Positions 1 to 6,000 of a stretch of DNA of 64,000 nucleotides are shown here, in pieces; positions within the stretch are counted from its first letter, which is position 1, and every line of letters starts with the position of its first letter. Made by a program: the position numbers. The stretch lies in assembly GCF_056712565.1 (NCBI RefSeq), contig NZ_CM160072.1; one strand, given 5' to 3'.

Positions 1-3000
1 AGAGTATCCCAAGCTCGCGTGGACCAATATCACCATTATGGTAGCCAACAGCAAAACTGTTATCGCTAATCGTCGCAAAACTGTGAATCTCAGTAACAGG
101 AGTGCTTCCGTCAACAAAAGAAGGAATAGTTCCAAGACTGGTTTTTCTCCATGGTGACGAGTGAAATGATGTACCAAAACTCCAGTATCTACCCTCGTTA
201 TTCTGATCCACATCCTGAGTATTTTGCGTCGTAACTGTAAAAGTATTTTTATCAATAACAGTAGTCACCGTCATATTCCCGGTAACACCTGTAACACCAG
301 AGTTTGAGAAGTTGACAAAATCACCAGCAAATAATCCGTGATCAGTAATGCGAATATAAGCGACTTGCTGATTTGCTGCTTTCGTTATACCACCATAAAC
401 GCGAAGGCTGCGACTCATTGGGCGATCCCACAACTCTGCAACCTGCAGTTTATTTCCTCTCACGGTCCGCGTCTCAATTACAGCAAAAAGGCGATTTCTG
501 ACAACCCCCATACTCATGCAGTGATAGTTAACTGTGGGATAGTTTTCATGTAAATCTGTAAGCCATTCCGGCGTTGTCCAGGTCTTCCCGTCATCTCCTG
601 AGCGAACCCATGCAACATGGAGGTTATTTACACCATGGCGGTCTCCAGCCATAAAAGGCGCATAGATGACATTGTCATATACAAACGTTTTATCCTGCGT
701 CCAGGCGTTGTACCACGGTGTATCTGTAATTTTAAATAACTCTCCCTGGATAAAATCTTCAGAAGCATAAAAAAGAGGCTGGCCCGGTATTCTCTCAAAT
801 AAAAAACGAGCATTTTTAAATCGACTGACATCCGGAAGAGTTGATACTTTAAAAGTAAGCCCTAATCCGTCAATTTTATAACCTGGAGATGAGGCTTCAA
901 GGCACGCGCTTATTGCAGTGGAATCGTCATTTATACCATCACCAACAGCTCCAAAATCTTTGGGGCTAATAGCATCACGCATTTTATCCTGGAACGTTCG
1001 GTACACAGCCCCAGAACCATACTGAATAAACCAACCAAAACCACCAACAACCCCGGCGATTGCAGCATCGACATAATTACGCATTGAGCGATTATTTACA
1101 GCGTCCTGCTCAAATGATGGATCTGCAAGGTTAGAAATTTTGTTTTGCTTTGCATCGTAATATTTTGCAAGCAAAGATGGTTTCATCAATGCACGTCTGA
1201 ACCACCCAAAACATTGCTGGATCAGCATCGTCAGGTAGTCAAAGGCATCTTCATGCACTTCGGGGAAAAATTTTCCCTGATTGCGAAGGTCTGTCTCCTG
1301 CACTACATCAAGCACACGATCTATCGTAATTCGCCATCCAGTAGCAAGCGGAGACGGAAGAACCACAGAACCGCCACTATAAGTGCCCGCCCCAGTTACC
1401 GTATAACCGGTATCCAGGACCAATTCTGTTACGTTCCCGTTCAGGTCAGACACCTGAACAACCAGGTCTGATTTTCTGAAAATTCGAAAAGTATACGGAA
1501 ACGATGTCGTAACGCCGTTACCGGTGTATTCGTTGTGGTCAACTTCGGTTGAGACCGTCATGTTAAATCTCCAGATAGTCGCAGCACCCGTTGCGCCGCA
1601 TATCTGGTTATTCTATTACCTGAAAAACCACATATGGATAAAAGGACTATAAATACCAATAGATATTACCTTTCGGGTAATTTGCAAAACGTGCTGGATA
1701 GCAAACAAATTATTTGTTACTGTATAAACATACAGTTATTGCATGGAGAAGATAAGATGCAGCAGTATCACTATCCACTGGAAGACGGATTTACCGAAAG
1801 GATTCACACGCCGGGAGGCGTCAGATCACTGGTGGAGGGATCGCTCTTGATGAAATTACTCCGGGATCTCGATAAGGATGGATTTAATGTCGATGGCCCA
1901 CTTGCCGAACTGACTGCACTGATTAACTACGTCACCAGCTCACAGATGTCTATGCGGGATCTGCAAACACATCTCGACTATTGTGCCGAACAATTACGAA
2001 AACAAACCAGATAAGGTTTGCAATTACCAAATGGAGTGCTTATATTTACCTTTGCGGTAAATTTACATCGCACTCCTCTTGTGCCATAGTAATCGGGCAC
2101 TGGCAAAATCCAGTGCCGGGATTGGCGTCCCGAGTTACTACAGAGGCACATATGCCGCATAAGCGGTTTTTTTATGTGTAAAGCGCACCTATTCTATGGT
2201 GGGCTGTGTGGGGGCACCGAAAGGTGCGCCGGGTCCTTTGTAGCCGGTTACGCCAACCCTGCACAGTTCACCACCAACCGATTGGCGTCGGTAGTGGTGA
2301 TTAACCTAACTACAAAGGTGATCGCCATGAATACCAAACCTTCCATCTTTTCCTTTGAGTCATCCTGCCAGATCCGTATGTTCATGATTGACGGAGAACC
2401 TTGGTTTGTCACCAAAGATGTGTGCAATGCTTTGAATATTGATGTTACACAAGCGAGAAAACTTGATAAAAAAGGCTGGAACAAAAAGGGGCTGTATTCA
2501 ATACAGACCCCTGGTGGAATACAAGAACTATCCATCGTTTCAGAATCAGGTCTCTACATCCTTATTCTGCGTTGCAAAGAGGCAATGACTGAGGGAACGA
2601 GAGCATTCAGATTTCTTGAATGGGTTACAGGCGAAGTACTTCCTCAGATCCGCCGCACCGGAAGCTACATTAAAAACTCGCTCCCGCAGGAAGAACGCAT
2701 AAAGATGGTTGCCGACCAGGTAGCCAACGCCACGGCGTCAGCAGTAATGCAGGCGATGAAGATAGAGAACAAAACCTACAGCGCCCCACTGAAGCCCGGC
2801 TACCGCAGCCTGATTCATTCGCCGTCTGGTGTTCTCGGCCTGACGGAGAACTCACTGCTGATGAATCTGCTGAACCAGTTACAGGAAGACGGGCACGACG
2901 TATCGGGCGCGGCGGCGGAGCTGACCACCATGTTCTGCTACATCGTCGGTGTGAGCAAGTGCCTGCGTGATATCCAGACGCACGCGGAGTACATCAACGA

Positions 3001-6000
3001 CAAGGCTGGGTTCTTCTGACGGGCGGCGGCACATGGATGTGCCTTTAAAATAATCATTGGCGATGTGATGTAGATTCGCGTAATATTACCTTACGGGTAA
3101 GAAAGCGTTTTTAATCTTCCCTTCAAAACGCGTCCTGTAGCCAAACATGGGAGGACGAAATGAAAACAAATACAACAAGAAAAGCGATGCCATACATTAT
3201 CCCAGAAGCAGATTTCGACAGAAAACTGAACATGTCTGAGAAGAACACTAGTCACACCGAAAGCTACTTAGCGAAAGGTGTGGTTGATTTCGTTCTTCCG
3301 GGATTCACAACACCTTATGGTTATCGCCTTGTAAAATCTTGTAATGGCGATCATTACAGAATGATTACTACCAGCGATACTCCAGAAACGGTGTATGCGG
3401 TTAAGTTAATCTTTCGGGAAGATATCGTCGAAGCTAAAAGAACATGTACGCAGATCATGGTATGGCGTACGCCTAATGTTATTCATGACCGTGCTGTTCA
3501 TGGTTTGCCTCAGATTTTTTTTCAGTTCTTCCTAGAGCAATATGCGATCGTTGTATCTGATGAGCAACAAACAATCGATGGGAGAAGATTCTGGGAAAGA
3601 ATGATTTCTTGGGCTATAAACACCCCGGGATATAATGTATACGTTTCAGATGGCTCTGAAGAAGATAGACCTCTTAGCTTCATGACATCATGGGATGATT
3701 TCTATAGCCAGTGGGCTGATTTCTGTTGGGGCAGTGATAAAGATGTGCATACCCACAGACTACTGGTTATAAGCAAAGATAAACTGCATTAATAGAAGCC
3801 CGCAGCGCGGGCTTTTTTGTGGACGAAACAAAAGTCAGTGCTACACTCATTGACGCCACATTGAGGTGGCTTATAGATGGAAATTTCACAATGAAAAAAA
3901 CATTTGCTGCACTGTTCGTTTTGTTGTCTCTGGTAGCTTCAACTCAGGCCTTTGCCGGTCGTTGTCAGCACGACAGCGATACTGCTGCTGACGGCTCCCG
4001 CTGCGGTGGGCGTTCTGCGGATTCCCGCCCGGGCGGCGGTGGCATTCGTTAAAAACAAGGCCGCGAAAGCGGCCTGTGACATGTCACGCTACATTGATAT
4101 ATGATTCATAAAGTAGCTTAAAGATTTACTTCCCAGAAAAGAAATTTCTTTTCCTGGATATGTCGCAATAATTGAGCATGACTTATCCCCGTTAGAGGTA
4201 ACAAATCCTGAATAACCTACTTGTTCTTTACCATTTTGTTGCTTGGCTAAAAAGTAGAGGTAGCTTATCTTTTTGCCCTCTGGGTAAAACTCTGCCAAAC
4301 CAGTATCGGTGATTGAATATTTTATTCTCCCGCCTTGAGTAACGTTTTCCATCTCAAGTTTAGCTATGTCTTTTCTGTTGTATTCAGCATTGATTTTCCT
4401 TTCGAAATCAATGTTGTTTTCAAATGAGTAGGAAGCAACAGTCTGAATAGATGGGAACACGTTTATCTGGATGCCCCCACAGTCGGCACAGGTATAAAGG
4501 TATGAATCAGATGGAATCCCCATAAAAGAAAACTGAGTTACCTTAAATTTATCGCTATCTCCAAAGTATTGAAGTTCGCATTTAACATTTTGCCCTGCAA
4601 AAGAAAATGCAGACATCAATATTGAAACAAAAAATATAATTGCCTTCATTATTATTTACCTAGCATGAACTGCGATGGTGGGATCAGAAAGTCGTTCCCC
4701 TGCTCACGCTCAACACGGCGCTGATAACGCTCAAGAGAGCCTGGGTCAAGGGCATCTTGTATCCGGTTCAATATTAAACCATTCATCGCCGTACGAAGCC
4801 AGAACACGTTGAGGAATGGCGTATTGTCAAGTGCCGTGCGATACCAGTCACCCAAATCTGCATCCCCTCTCGTGGTCTGCTGGAGCAGCGTGATAATGCT
4901 GTCAGCGTTCGATGCTGCTGGCCCCATTAGCGACGTAACCGGCCCGGCCCCCATGCGGTTGACCTCACCAAACATGAAGTCACCCAAGATGCCAAGACCG
5001 CCCCCCTGAGATGCGGCTGCGAGAAACGTCTTGGCATCTGCCGGGCGTGGTGTTTGCCCTTTCAGCATGAGTTTTGACTGCATGGAGATATAACCAAACA
5101 TAGTCGCCCAGACAAAGAGGTTTGCAGCACCAAGGAAAGCCCCCTTCCCGTTACGTAGCAGCGCATTCGTCAGCGATCCGGTTTTCGACTCACCAAGCCC
5201 AGCAGGAATATAACCACGCCCGAATACTTCGCGTCCTAGTACGTTCTGCATGAAGCTTGCAGTGAACGATTTGTACTGACCAGCGAATCGTATTGCTTCC
5301 CCAGCCACCGTTCCTGGCACCGTGCCCATCTTCATAAACGCCTGCGTGCGATCGCCAGGCTCTGACATGGCGATATTCAGACGGTCAAGGATGTAGCCGC
5401 GCAACTGCCCTTCCAATTGATCGCGTGCGTCAGCGATAGCGCGCTGCGTTGGTTTGATCCCCTTACTCTCTACATAACCGGCAATCACTTCGTCAGGCAC
5501 GCCGCGGATGCCGCTGGTCGTCATGAACTTACGACCTTCGCTATCGGCCATGTCCATGTTGCGAAAAATTTCCCACTCACGTTCGCCAATACCGTGCAGA
5601 TCCAGCACGCGTCGCAGGTCTTCCGGTAGCCGCGCATGAGACTGGTCAGCATTCTTTGCAAGCCAGTTGGTTATCATCATGGCGTTGCTGTTGCGACCGC
5701 TCTCGGTCCAGAAGTTCATGAGGTTGTACTTAAAGAAAAGCTGCTGCGCGCGACCAAGCTTTCCATTCAGCGTGTCATCACCAGATATGCGCCGGATGAT
5801 TTCCTGCGTCATGGAGTCGGAATAAACTCCGATAGAGGAAAGGATCTCTTTCTGCTCCGCGCTGTTGTAACGCGTGAAGCGGCCTCTCATAGCACCAAGC
5901 AACGCCTGCATAAAATTCTGCCCTTGGTAGCGCATCTCGGTAGCGGCGATAGGCACGTCGTTAAACGATGAGATTACCGCGCCACCAAGTTGGCTCATAC

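What the first reader, a model, noticed from the sequence alone, without database searches (positions are those of the whole stretch)
1757..3019. Antirepressor-like Bro-N protein with a stand-alone paralogue of its C-terminal domain
The 85-aa ORF at 1757-2014 aligns with the C-terminal roughly 80 residues of the neighbouring Bro-N protein (shared pattern ...LMKLLRDLDKDGF.VDG..AELT.../...RDLQTH..Y). Both genes are preceded by perfect operator-like palindromes. A truncated decoy or modulator of an antirepressor is an unusual arrangement.
Basis: seen in the sequence. Interest (0 to 1): 0.45.

Follow-up and report, generated by a model that had tools for sequence, protein, structure and literature searches.

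The report
Two antirepressors sharing one repressor-binding domain
The small gene is the prophage's known DNA-damage-triggered antirepressor, not a decoy, and the neighbouring Bro-N protein carries a diverged copy of the same domain behind an antisense-RNA switch, which probably gives the phage a second way to switch off its repressor.

Summary
The 85-aa ORF (1757-2014) and the last ~80 residues of the Bro-N protein (2327-3019) are homologous: 45% identity, E 1e-16. Both promoter regions carry perfect palindromes.

The interpretation does not hold. The small ORF is the orthologue (84-86% identity; PDB 5D50 chain E, E 5e-45) of Ant from Salmonella phage SPC32H. Ant is the characterised LexA-controlled antirepressor of the non-cleavable repressor Rep. 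A near-consensus LexA box sits 22 bp upstream of the start codon.

The window holds a phiV10/epsilon15-type prophage inserted at guaA. Its Rep homologue lies at 29020-29604. The palindromes (TTACC-N5-GGTAA) are inferred to be Rep's operators: 17 sites against 1.07 expected, clustered around rep.

The C4 loops pair with the Bro-N ribosome-binding site, and loops and targets covary across relatives.

The Ant-like domain is kept at the C-terminus while the N-terminal domain is swapped among Bro-N, AntA, Rha, ORF6N and P22_AR_N.

Best reading: two antirepressors share one Rep-binding module, one SOS-gated and one RNA-gated. Rep binding by the fused copy is inferred, not shown. This is a new variant of known kinds and of moderate interest.

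The parts
1665..1681 (.). Perfect 17-bp palindrome ATTACCTTTCGGGTAAT, inferred to be a Rep operator. It lies between the divergent tail-fibre gene (start 1560, - strand) and ant.
   Evidence: The same site sits at the same position in SPC32H, phiV10, TL-2011b, Tyrion, a Klebsiella phage and L010. Operator identity is inferred from enrichment and from clustering around rep in the window and in SPC32H.
1720..1735 (+). LexA (SOS) box CTGTATAAACATACAG, 22 bp upstream of the ant start codon.
   Evidence: Conserved as CTGT-N8-ACAG or ATGT-N8-ACAG in all relatives examined. LexA control of SPC32H ant is cited in PMC7380047.
1757..2014 (+). ant: an 85-aa stand-alone antirepressor, orthologue of SPC32H Ant.
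   Evidence: 5d50_E E 5.3e-45. 85.5% identity to the gene annotated ant in SPC32H. phrog_450. dN/dS 0.06-0.10.
2045..2061 (.). Perfect 17-bp palindrome TTTACCTTTGCGGTAAA, inferred to be a Rep operator. It overlaps the last base of a promoter-like -10 (TATATT, 2041-2046) and abuts the -35 (TTTACA, 2062-2067) of the isrK promoter-like site.
   Evidence: The junction GGTAA-(a/g)TTTACA is conserved in all seven loci that carry the module.
2097..2173 (+). IsrK-type sRNA/leader: two hairpins carrying the a1/b1 decoy sites (b1 UUGGCGU at 2122-2128) and an intrinsic terminator (2154-2173).
   Evidence: Rfam RF01394, 74.2 bits against a gathering score of 50. RF03163 c4-a1b1 at 2084-2136 scores 44.3 against 46.7, just below threshold. 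Terminator. b1 covaries with the C4 b' segment.
2192..2278 (+). C4-type antisense RNA, with a' loop CCUUUGUAG at 2235-2243 and b' segment ACGCCAA at 2250-2256.
   Evidence: Rfam RF01695, 79.5 bits against a gathering score of 45. Loop and target complementarity. Covariation.
2282..2318 (+). C4 target sites in the Bro-N translation-initiation region: b2 UUGGCGU (2282-2288) and a2 CUACAAAGG (2310-2318). a2 contains the Shine-Dalgarno AAGG(UG), 8 nt before ATG 2327.
   Evidence: Perfect 9-nt and 7-nt complements to a' and b'. Three a-types and three b-types change together with their C4 loops across 8 loci.
2327..3019 (+). Modular antirepressor gene (230 aa): Bro-N domain (residues 16-106, nt 2372-2644), linker, and Ant-like C-terminal domain (residues 149-225, nt 2771-3001). 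The frame is open upstream to ATG 2174, giving an 'orf45'-like 281-aa form.
   Evidence: Pfam. 5d50_E E 9e-14. The AF2 model of the domain matches 5d50_G/E, TM 0.66-0.79. 81% identical overall, and 100% over residues 106-230, to ZX5 ORF4, whose over-expression lowered lysogeny.
3086..3100 (.). Third copy of the palindrome, TTACCTTACGGGTAA. It overlaps a -10-like TAATAT in front of the cargo gene 3160-3792 (phrog_1349, unknown function).
29020..29604 (+). rep: the prophage repressor and presumed target of both antirepressors. It is flanked by operator clusters at 28902-28964 and at 29662 and 29724.
   Evidence: 5d50_A E 4e-42 over the full length. HTH domains only, no S24 peptidase domain. Operator positions.

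Best explanation
Window 1560-3100 is the secondary-immunity ('immI-like') locus of a phiV10/epsilon15-type (Uetakevirus) prophage integrated at the 3' end of guaA. It encodes two antirepressors built on one repressor-binding fold, each under a different control.

(1) ant (1757-2014) is the orthologue of SPC32H Ant. LexA holds it off. After DNA damage Ant is made and, as shown for SPC32H, a tetramer of Ant binds the non-cleavable repressor Rep and takes the Rep tetramer off its palindromic operators.

(2) The Bro-N gene (2327-3019) encodes a modular antirepressor whose C-terminal ~80 residues are an old, diverged paralogue of Ant. Its mRNA starts with an IsrK/C4 leader. The processed C4 antisense RNA pairs with the ribosome-binding site and blocks translation, as in phage P1 immI. 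IsrK carries decoy sites for C4, as in Gifsy-1.

The TTACC-N5-GGTAA palindromes in front of ant, the isrK leader and the next cargo gene are operators of Rep itself. The locus is therefore also tied to the state of the main switch.

Shown here: homology, domain architecture, RNA elements and their covariation, operator enrichment and conservation. Inferred: that the fused Ant-like domain binds Rep, that Rep binds these palindromes, and whether that binding represses or activates.
For: Identity of ant:
- 5d50_E E 5e-45.
- 85.5% identity to the gene annotated ant in SPC32H/SPC32N.
- Same position, divergent from the tail-fibre or tailspike gene.
- A conserved LexA box.
- SOS/LexA control and protein-protein inhibition of the repressor are cited from Kim & Ryu 2013 in PMC7380047. 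The Ant tetramer splitting the Rep tetramer is described in PMC9638917.

Cognate Rep: 5d50_A E 4e-42, with no S24 peptidase domain.

Operators:
- 17 sites against 1.07 expected in the window, and 18 against 0.74 in SPC32H.
- Three sites in the rep/cro intergenic region of both phages.
- Positions conserved at ant and at the isrK promoter.

Fused copy:
- E 1e-16 to Ant and E 9e-14 to 5d50_E.
- The model of the isolated domain (pLDDT 85) retrieves only 5d50_G/E from the PDB (rmsd 1.6-2.3 A, TM 0.66-0.79).
- The domain stays at the C-terminus while the N-terminal domain is exchanged: Bro-N, AntA, Rha, ORF6N and P22_AR_N in TL-2011b gp42.
- All fusions examined lie in the same tail-fibre/ant locus of the same phage type.
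- The Bro-N half alone occurs in 549 phage records across many phyla, but only 18 records cover 80% or more of the protein.
- The ZX5 ORF4 protein, identical over residues 106-230, cut lysogen titres from 1e9 to 1e6 and rep mRNA by 75% when over-expressed (PMC9782041).

RNA gate:
- Rfam C4 79.5 bits and isrK 74.2 bits, both above gathering score.
- The a' loop is a 9-nt perfect complement of the SD region, and b' a 7-nt complement of b1 and b2.
- Cognate complementary runs are 6-9 nt, against a non-cognate mean of about 5. There are three compensatory a-types and three b-types across 8 loci.
- The mechanism is documented for the Gifsy-1 isrK-orf45-anrP locus in PMC4825925.
Against: - No experiment or complex model here shows the fused domain touching Rep. 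The tools return single-chain models only.
- Ant does not track Rep closely. The window and SPC32H share 85% of Ant but only 42% of Rep. Sequence similarity to Ant therefore does not prove that the fused copy has the same target specificity.
- The fused domain is only 40-45% identical to Ant. I could not check whether the residues that contact Rep in 5D50 are conserved, because neither the coordinates nor the paper were available.
- The full-length AF2 model was poor (pLDDT 64) and did not retrieve 5D50.
- AF2 may have seen 5D50 in training, so the fold match for the isolated domain is not fully independent.
- The consensus scan did not resolve the ant promoter.
- The operators abut -35 elements, a geometry that could in principle activate rather than repress.
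- phiV10 carries a frameshifted copy of the fused gene, so the gene is dispensable for a viable phage.
- The ZX5 over-expression data are crude. The phage's own ant gene was present in that experiment.
Confidence: 0.7

Rival explanations
1. One reading: the small ORF is a truncated decoy or modulator that titrates or tunes the 'real' Bro-N antirepressor.
For: The two share a domain. SPC32H Ant acts as an oligomer (PMC9638917), so co-assembly of paralogues is conceivable.
Against: The small protein is 84-86% identical to an antirepressor solved in complex with its repressor. It is present in relatives that have no Bro-N gene. It has its own LexA box. It forms a separate, strongly constrained clade. 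It is not a fragment of the larger gene.
Confidence: 0.04
2. The modulation runs the other way. The Ant-like domain of the Bro-N protein assembles into mixed oligomers with Ant, or serves only as an oligomerisation domain. It tunes or sequesters Ant, or simply multimerises a DNA-binding Bro-N regulator, and does not bind Rep.
For: The fused copies were always found next to a stand-alone ant gene in the six kinds of context examined. SPC32H Ant is a tetramer. Bro-N, Rha and ORF6N domains are generally regarded as DNA-binding modules (my own knowledge: Iyer et al. 2002, not read here). The PDB matches of the N-terminal half are DNA-binding folds such as Mbp1, Ski and Dachshund, but only weakly.
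Against: Five unrelated N-terminal modules are tolerated while the C-terminal domain is kept. This fits a C-terminal effector better than a mere oligomerisation tag. ZX5 ORF4 over-expression pushed the phage away from lysogeny, in the direction expected of an antirepressor. Putting such a protein under a C4 gate parallels P1 Ant.
Confidence: 0.14
3. The fused copy is an antirepressor aimed mainly at the Rep variants of other, heteroimmune Uetakevirus prophages. It would be an anti-immunity or cross-talk weapon used on superinfection, while Ant handles the phage's own Rep.
For: Trans-acting antirepressors that hit non-cognate repressors are documented for Gifsy and Fels phages (PMC3121763). Rep is highly variable (42-99% identity). 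The two Ant clades have diverged to about 40% identity. The C4 loops come in combinatorial specificity types, as expected for a second immunity determinant. The fused domain evolves faster than Ant.
Against: ZX5 ORF4 acted on a phage whose Rep is 99.5% identical to the window's. No test of specificity is available. This is a refinement of the best explanation rather than its opposite.
Confidence: 0.12

Closest known systems
Rep-Ant switch of Salmonella phage SPC32H (Kim & Ryu 2013 J Virol; Kim et al. 2016 PNAS; PDB 5D50, 5D4Z)
   Same: The small ORF is the orthologue of Ant (84-86% identity). It occupies the same position beside the tail-fibre/tailspike gene and has the same LexA box. A Rep homologue is present. 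The operator core TTACC-N5-GGTAA is the same and is spread through the genome in the same way.
   Different: SPC32H has only ant at this locus, followed by a terminator. The window adds the IsrK/C4 leader, a Bro-N protein with a second Ant-fold domain, and cargo genes. Rep is only 42% identical.
immI operon of phages P1/P7 (c4 antisense RNA - icd - ant1/ant2)
   Same: A C4 RNA is co-transcribed with its target. Its a'/b' loops pair with a2/b2 at the ribosome-binding site of the antirepressor operon, and a1/b1 copies lie upstream. An operator of the primary repressor sits at the promoter. Loop and target covariation defines specificity types (the P1 facts are from my own knowledge, Heinrich, Velleman & Schuster 1995, not read here).
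   Different: There is no icd-like gene. C4 masks the SD of the antirepressor gene itself. The antirepressor's C-terminal domain is the SPC32H Ant fold, and the host phage is a podovirus with a different repressor.
Gifsy-1 isrK-orf45-anrP locus of Salmonella (Hershko-Shalev et al. 2016, PMC4825925)
   Same: An IsrK sRNA with its own terminator, followed by the C4-like 'orf45' region and a Bro-N antirepressor gene.
   Different: In the window the orf45 frame is fused in frame to the Bro-N ORF (2174-3019). The paper notes the same for Shigella dysenteriae. A LexA-controlled ant gene lies directly upstream with no terminator predicted between them. I did not compare the AnrP sequence itself.
E. 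coli phage vB_EcoP_ZX5 ORF4 'anti-repressor' (PMC9782041)
   Same: 81% identical overall and 100% identical over residues 106-230. Same locus and same Rep (99.5% identity). Over-expression reduced lysogeny.
   Different: The Bro-N half is a different subtype (about 58% identity) and the C4 a-type differs. That study did not report the small ant gene, the RNA module or the homology of the C-terminal domain to SPC32H Ant.
P22 immI (ant, arc, mnt, sar RNA)
   Same: An antirepressor locus next to the tailspike gene of a temperate podovirus. In the close relative TL-2011b, a P22_AR_N protein with an Arc-like repressor and sar RNA sits in the same locus and ends in the same Ant-like domain.
   Different: The window itself has no arc, mnt or sar, and its N-terminal domain is Bro-N (the P22_AR_N match is below threshold).

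Membership tests
SPC32H-type small antirepressor Ant (PDB 5D50 chain E; phrog_450) | Full-length sequence homology to SPC32H Ant in a stand-alone protein of about 86 aa | tested here: met
   phmmer against the PDB gives E 5.3e-45 over residues 2-84. 85.5% identity by tblastn. phrog_450 E 3e-47.
SPC32H-type small antirepressor Ant (PDB 5D50 chain E; phrog_450) | LexA box at the promoter (SOS control) | tested here: met
   CTGTATAAACATACAG at 1720-1735, aligned with the SPC32H box CTGTATGTTTATACAG. Conserved in all relatives examined. LexA binding itself was not tested.
SPC32H-type small antirepressor Ant (PDB 5D50 chain E; phrog_450) | A cognate non-cleavable Rep repressor encoded by the same phage | tested here: met
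   29020-29604 matches 5d50_A at E 4e-42 over the full length. HTH domains only, no S24 peptidase domain.
SPC32H-type small antirepressor Ant (PDB 5D50 chain E; phrog_450) | Forms a tetramer, binds Rep and releases it from DNA | not testable with these tools
   Known for SPC32H only (PMC9638917). Single-chain models cannot test this.
Ant fold as the C-terminal domain of the Bro-N protein | Significant sequence and fold match to 5D50 Ant | tested here: met
   E 9e-14 to 5d50_E. The domain model (pLDDT 85) has 5d50_G/E as its top PDB hits, TM 0.66-0.79 and rmsd 1.6-2.3 A. The full-length model did not retrieve 5D50.
Ant fold as the C-terminal domain of the Bro-N protein | Binds Rep | not testable with these tools
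   Support is indirect only: domain retention through N-terminal swaps and the ZX5 ORF4 phenotype.
BRO family / Bro-N antirepressors (Pfam PF02498) | Bro-N domain above the Pfam gathering score | tested here: met
   51.4 bits against 25.6, residues 16-106.
P1/P7 immI-type C4 antisense control (Rfam RF01695, RF03163) | C4 RNA matching the covariance model above its gathering score | tested here: met
   79.5 bits against 45, full-length match at 2192-2278.
P1/P7 immI-type C4 antisense control (Rfam RF01695, RF03163) | a'/b' loops complementary to a2/b2 overlapping the RBS of the downstream gene, maintained by compensatory change | tested here: met
   9-nt and 7-nt perfect complements, with a2 containing the SD. 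Three a-types and three b-types covary across 8 loci.
P1/P7 immI-type C4 antisense control (Rfam RF01695, RF03163) | Upstream a1/b1 copies of the target | tested here: inconclusive
   b1 is present and covaries. The RF03163 match scores 44.3, just below its gathering score of 46.7. a1 does not follow the a' variants.
P1/P7 immI-type C4 antisense control (Rfam RF01695, RF03163) | An icd-like ORF between c4 and ant, translationally coupled to ant | tested here: not met
   There is no separate ORF. Only 48 nt separate C4 from ATG 2327, and the upstream frame from ATG 2174 is fused in frame.
Gifsy-1 isrK-orf45-anrP locus (Rfam RF01394) | IsrK sRNA with its own terminator upstream of a Bro-N antirepressor gene | tested here: met
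   74.2 bits against 50 at 2097-2173. Terminator at 2154-2173.
Gifsy-1 isrK-orf45-anrP locus (Rfam RF01394) | A separate orf45 whose stop overlaps the anrP start (AUGA) | tested here: not met
   The frame from ATG 2174 runs without a stop into the Bro-N ORF, giving 281 aa. The paper notes the same fusion in Shigella dysenteriae.

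The most novel reading that the evidence does not exclude
The Ant fold solved in 5D50 is a portable, Rep-specific effector domain. In Uetakevirus-type prophages it has been duplicated once and then attached to interchangeable N-terminal modules (Bro-N, AntA, Rha, ORF6N, P22_AR_N). As a result, one repressor is attacked through two or three independently gated routes: LexA for Ant, IsrK/C4 antisense RNA for the Bro-N fusion, and Arc/sar in TL-2011b. The combinatorial C4 loop types would add a second, RNA-based layer of immunity specificity. If true, this gives the poorly understood C-terminal halves of 'Bro-N/Rha/AntA antirepressor' proteins a concrete, structurally defined role as the target-recognition domain.
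Probability: 0.5. Interest if true: 0.55.

Novelty: new variant of a known kind. Interest (0 to 1): 0.4.

Why it matters
Antirepressor annotations of the Bro-N, Rha, AntA and KilA-N type are among the most common in phage genomes. What their variable C-terminal halves do is rarely known. In this case the C-terminal half is homologous to a protein whose complex with its repressor has been solved, so the idea that the C-terminal domain is the target-specific part can be tested directly.

The locus also shows how one prophage can connect its lysis-lysogeny switch to two inputs: DNA damage through LexA, and an antisense-RNA gate whose specificity types covary. That bears on prophage induction, on superinfection immunity, and on cross-talk among the phiV10-like prophages of E. 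coli, which include relatives in O157 and other pathogenic strains. About 1,000 of 5,426 complete E. coli genomes match part of the locus.

On a practical level, the 85-aa gene is annotated 'hypothetical protein' in nearly all records seen and could be named ant.

Tried and rejected
- Pfam and NCBIfam have no model for the Ant domain. Only noise hits came back (DUF724, UpsF).
- The full-length AF2 model of the Bro-N protein was poor (pLDDT 64, pTM 0.37). Its Foldseek search matched only the N-terminal half weakly (4ye7, Ski, Mbp1) and not 5D50. I therefore modelled the domain alone.
- Whole-molecule RNA duplex energies of C4 against the initiation region or IsrK were only marginally better than shuffled targets (17/300 and 14/300 shuffles as good). 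I relied instead on exact loop complements and covariation.
- The consensus promoter scan did not find a convincing ant promoter. I could not place it by eye, so the promoter is left unresolved.
- The primary SPC32H papers (J Virol 2013, PNAS 2016) and the epsilon15 genome paper are not in the library. What I say of them comes from papers that cite them or from memory, and is marked as such. They may already mention fused Ant homologues.
- I considered a link to the Gifsy GfoA/GftA or 186 Tum small antirepressors. Their genomic context differs (downstream of dinI) and I had no sequences, so this was not tested.
- I considered a linker-fusion AF2 model of Rep plus the Ant-like domain. I dropped it because the tool returns no contact or PAE information and no positive control was possible.
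- I checked whether the tail-fibre gene was truncated because no ORF was listed. It simply runs off the left end of the window.

Full report
**Observation**

The 85-aa ORF at 1757-2014 starts with ATG and has GGAG 8 nt upstream. The ORF ending at 3019 is also present. BLASTP of the two products aligns residues 2-75 of the small protein with residues 149-222 of the larger one. The alignment has no gaps, 33/74 identities (45%), and E 1e-16.

The larger protein has a Bro-N domain at residues 16-106 (51.4 bits against a cut-off of 25.6). Its likely start is ATG 2327, preceded by AAGGTG. The frame is open upstream to ATG 2174.

Two perfect 17-bp palindromes exist: ATTACC-N5-GGTAAT at 1665-1681 and TTTACC-N5-GGTAAA at 2045-2061. 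A third, with 5-bp arms, lies at 3086-3100.

**Where the window comes from**

Megablast places the region in phiV10/epsilon15-type temperate podophages (genus Uetakevirus) and in about 1,000 of 5,426 complete E. coli genomes. The window begins inside the tail-fibre gene, which is on the - strand with its start at 1560. It then runs through the virion genes, terminase, early genes, a repressor gene (29020-29604), an integrase ORF (33453-34703) and an ORF at the position of guaA (34896-36473). The guaA identification rests on the ZX5 paper, which reports integration at the 3' end of guaA; I did not search these two ORFs myself. The finding lies in the gap between the tail-fibre gene and the structural operon.

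**The small ORF is Ant**

Against the PDB it matches a single chain, 5d50_E, 'Anti-repressor protein' of the Rep-Ant complex of Salmonella phage SPC32H, with E 5e-45 over residues 2-84. tblastn gives 85.5% identity to the gene annotated ant in SPC32H and SPC32N.

The gene is found in 35 phage records, all of them Uetakevirus-like phages of Escherichia, Salmonella, Enterobacter and Klebsiella. It always lies divergent from the tail-fibre or tailspike gene.

A near-consensus SOS box, CTGTATAAACATACAG, sits at 1720-1735. It aligns with the SPC32H box and is conserved as CTGT-N8-ACAG or ATGT-N8-ACAG in every relative examined.

Papers I could read state two things about SPC32H. Upon LexA cleavage, Ant is made and inhibits the repressor by protein-protein contact (PMC7380047). 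The Ant tetramer binds two Rep dimers and breaks the DNA-binding Rep tetramer (PMC9638917). The primary papers were not available.

Between window and SPC32H, dN/dS is 0.07 with saturated dS. The 85% identity therefore reflects strong constraint, not recent transfer.

**The repressor and the palindromes**

ORF 29020-29604 matches SPC32H Rep (5d50_A) over its whole length at E 4e-42. It has HTH domains but no S24 peptidase domain, so induction by an antirepressor rather than by self-cleavage is expected.

The core TTACC-N5-GGTAA occurs 17 times in the window (10 exact) against 1.07 expected. In the SPC32H genome it occurs 18 times against 0.74 expected. In both phages three sites fill the rep/cro intergenic region, further sites bracket the early-left promoter, and others precede the terminase and portal gene clusters.

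I infer that these are Rep operators scattered through the genome. The palindrome upstream of ant and the one abutting the TTTACA -35 of the isrK promoter-like site are conserved in position in all relatives. Whether Rep represses or activates at these two sites was not tested. The ant promoter itself was not resolved.

Between the two genes, Rfam finds an IsrK sRNA (2097-2173, 74.2 bits against 50) with its own terminator. It also finds a C4 antisense RNA (2192-2278, 79.5 bits against 45), and the a1/b1 target element just below threshold.

The C4 a' loop CCUUUGUAG is a perfect 9-nt complement of CUACAAAGG at 2310-2318, which contains the Shine-Dalgarno sequence of ATG 2327. The b' segment ACGCCAA is a perfect complement of UUGGCGU at 2282-2288 (b2) and at 2122-2128 (b1, inside IsrK).

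The a-types are CCUUUGUAG/CUACAAAGG, CCACUUAG/CUAAGUGG and CCUUUUAG/CUAAAAGG. The b-types are ACGCCAA/UUGGCGU, AGACCAA/UUGGUCU and GUCUCAA/UUGAGAC. They occur in different combinations. Cognate complementary runs are 6-9 nt, while non-cognate runs average about 5 nt.

This is the logic of P1/P7 immI (my own knowledge) and of the Gifsy-1 isrK-orf45-anrP locus (PMC4825925). One difference is that C4 here masks the antirepressor's own ribosome-binding site. Another is that the 'orf45' frame is fused in frame to the gene. No terminator is predicted between ant and isrK, so SOS-driven transcripts may read into the module. That last point is an inference.

**The Bro-N protein**

Its C-terminal 77 residues match 5d50_E at E 9e-14. 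A model of residues 141-230 (pLDDT 85) retrieves only 5d50_G/E from the PDB, with TM 0.66-0.79 and rmsd 1.6-2.3 A. The full-length model was poor and did not retrieve 5D50.

The Ant family is small, with 57 representatives at 50% identity among 1.84 billion proteins. In all fusions the Ant-like domain is C-terminal. The N-terminal partner varies: Bro-N, AntA, Rha and ORF6N, and P22_AR_N in TL-2011b gp42, which lies beside an Arc-like gene and a sar RNA.

In a neighbour-joining tree the Bro-N and AntA fusions form one clade and the stand-alone Ants another, with the distant Rha and ORF6N fusions branching separately. Mean identity between fused and stand-alone copies is about 40%. An AntA fusion carries a C-terminal domain almost identical to those of Bro-N fusions, so N-terminal modules have been swapped onto a retained C-terminal domain.

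Every fusion examined sits in the same tail-fibre/ant locus. Five of the loci carrying the Bro-N, AntA or Rha (L010) fusions were scanned and have IsrK and C4 upstream; the distant P0170 and P0171 loci were not scanned. The Bro-N half alone is found in 549 phage records across many phyla, while only 18 records cover 80% or more of the protein. The fused domain has dN/dS 0.05-0.31.

The ZX5 protein ORF4 is 81% identical overall and identical over residues 106-230. When over-expressed it lowered lysogen titres from 1e9 to 1e6 and rep mRNA by 75% (PMC9782041).

Together these results support the view that the C-terminal domain is the part that recognises this phage family's Rep. None of them shows binding.

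**Cautions**

Ant does not co-diverge tightly with Rep, as identity to the window shows:

| Relative | Rep | Ant | Fused domain |
|---|---|---|---|
| Tyrion (Enterobacter) | 78% | 84% | 78% |
| Klebsiella phages | 45% | 60-64% | 53% |
| SPC32H (Salmonella) | 42% | 85% | absent |

. Target specificity therefore cannot be read from similarity alone.

- phiV10 has a frameshifted fused gene, so the gene is dispensable.
- The fused domain might co-assemble with Ant, or might target the Reps of other prophages. Both are kept as rivals.

**Verdict**

The paralogy is real and highly significant, but the 'decoy' reading is wrong. The small gene is the known SOS antirepressor. The Bro-N protein is a second, RNA-gated antirepressor candidate carrying the same fold.

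Each component belongs to a known kind: SPC32H Ant/Rep, C4/IsrK and Bro-N. I did not find three things described in the searchable literature: their combination in one locus, the recognition that the 5D50 Ant fold is a C-terminal module of several 'antirepressor' architectures, and the covarying C4 types in this phage group. I rate it a new variant of a known kind, with interest about 0.4.

Noticed in passing
window 20481, 23622-23654, 26557, 26619, 28565, 28902-28964, 29662, 29724; L005 (SPC32H) 12, 3175, 33528-33680, 34390-34451, 35972, 36034: The TTACC-N5-GGTAA palindrome is scattered through the whole prophage. Copies lie directly upstream of the small-terminase gene and of the portal gene cluster, at equivalent positions in SPC32H. 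This suggests Rep may control late or structural operons directly, as the dispersed C1 operators do in P1.
   Followed up: partly
L004 (TL-2011b) 4949-5893 (-), 5966-6133 (-), sar RNA 5895-5962: TL-2011b carries a third protein ending in the same Ant-like domain. It has a P22_AR_N N-terminus (314 aa, last ~84 aa 94% identical to the window's) and lies next to an Arc-like repressor and a sar antisense RNA. One phage therefore has three Ant-fold proteins under three control systems. HEMP4 also shows three copies.
   Followed up: partly
L001 (phiV10) 3825-4504: In phiV10 the Bro-N gene is split by a frameshift inside the Ant-like domain. It is annotated as a 194-aa Bro-N protein plus a 29-aa ORF, and tblastn recovers the domain in two pieces. 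A viable phage can therefore lack the intact fusion.
   Followed up: partly
window 3160-3792 (+), 3819-4052 (+), 4089-4649 (-): These are cargo genes downstream of the antirepressor module. One is a 210-aa protein of unknown function (phrog_1349) preceded by a Rep-operator-like palindrome. One is a small ORF with a signal-peptide-like stretch. One is a 186-aa protein with an N-terminal signal-like sequence (phrog_11983). Relatives carry different cargo at this spot, for example a YafO-family toxin in TL-2011b and L006.
   Followed up: no
window 2174-2326: The frame upstream of the Bro-N start is open from ATG 2174, immediately after the IsrK terminator, and runs through the C4 RNA gene. This gives a possible 281-aa product. 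Many database entries-286-aa forms. The Gifsy-1 study found that translation of this 'orf45' region is needed for translation of the antirepressor.
   Followed up: partly
window 20817-20893 (+): A tRNA-Arg (anticodon TCT) gene lies inside the prophage between the portal and terminase regions. SPC32H has a tRNA-Arg at the equivalent place.
   Followed up: no
window 56193-56284 (-): An sroE sRNA (116.6 bits) lies in the chromosomal part of the window, outside the prophage. It is ordinary E. coli content.
   Followed up: no
L016 10001-11044; L014 1699-2796: In more distant relatives the fused gene (Rha or ORF6N N-terminus) is convergent with the small 87-89-aa gene instead of downstream of it. 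The pairing of the two genes is kept even though the gene order is rearranged. I assumed the small gene there is ant from its size and position and did not check its sequence.
   Followed up: no
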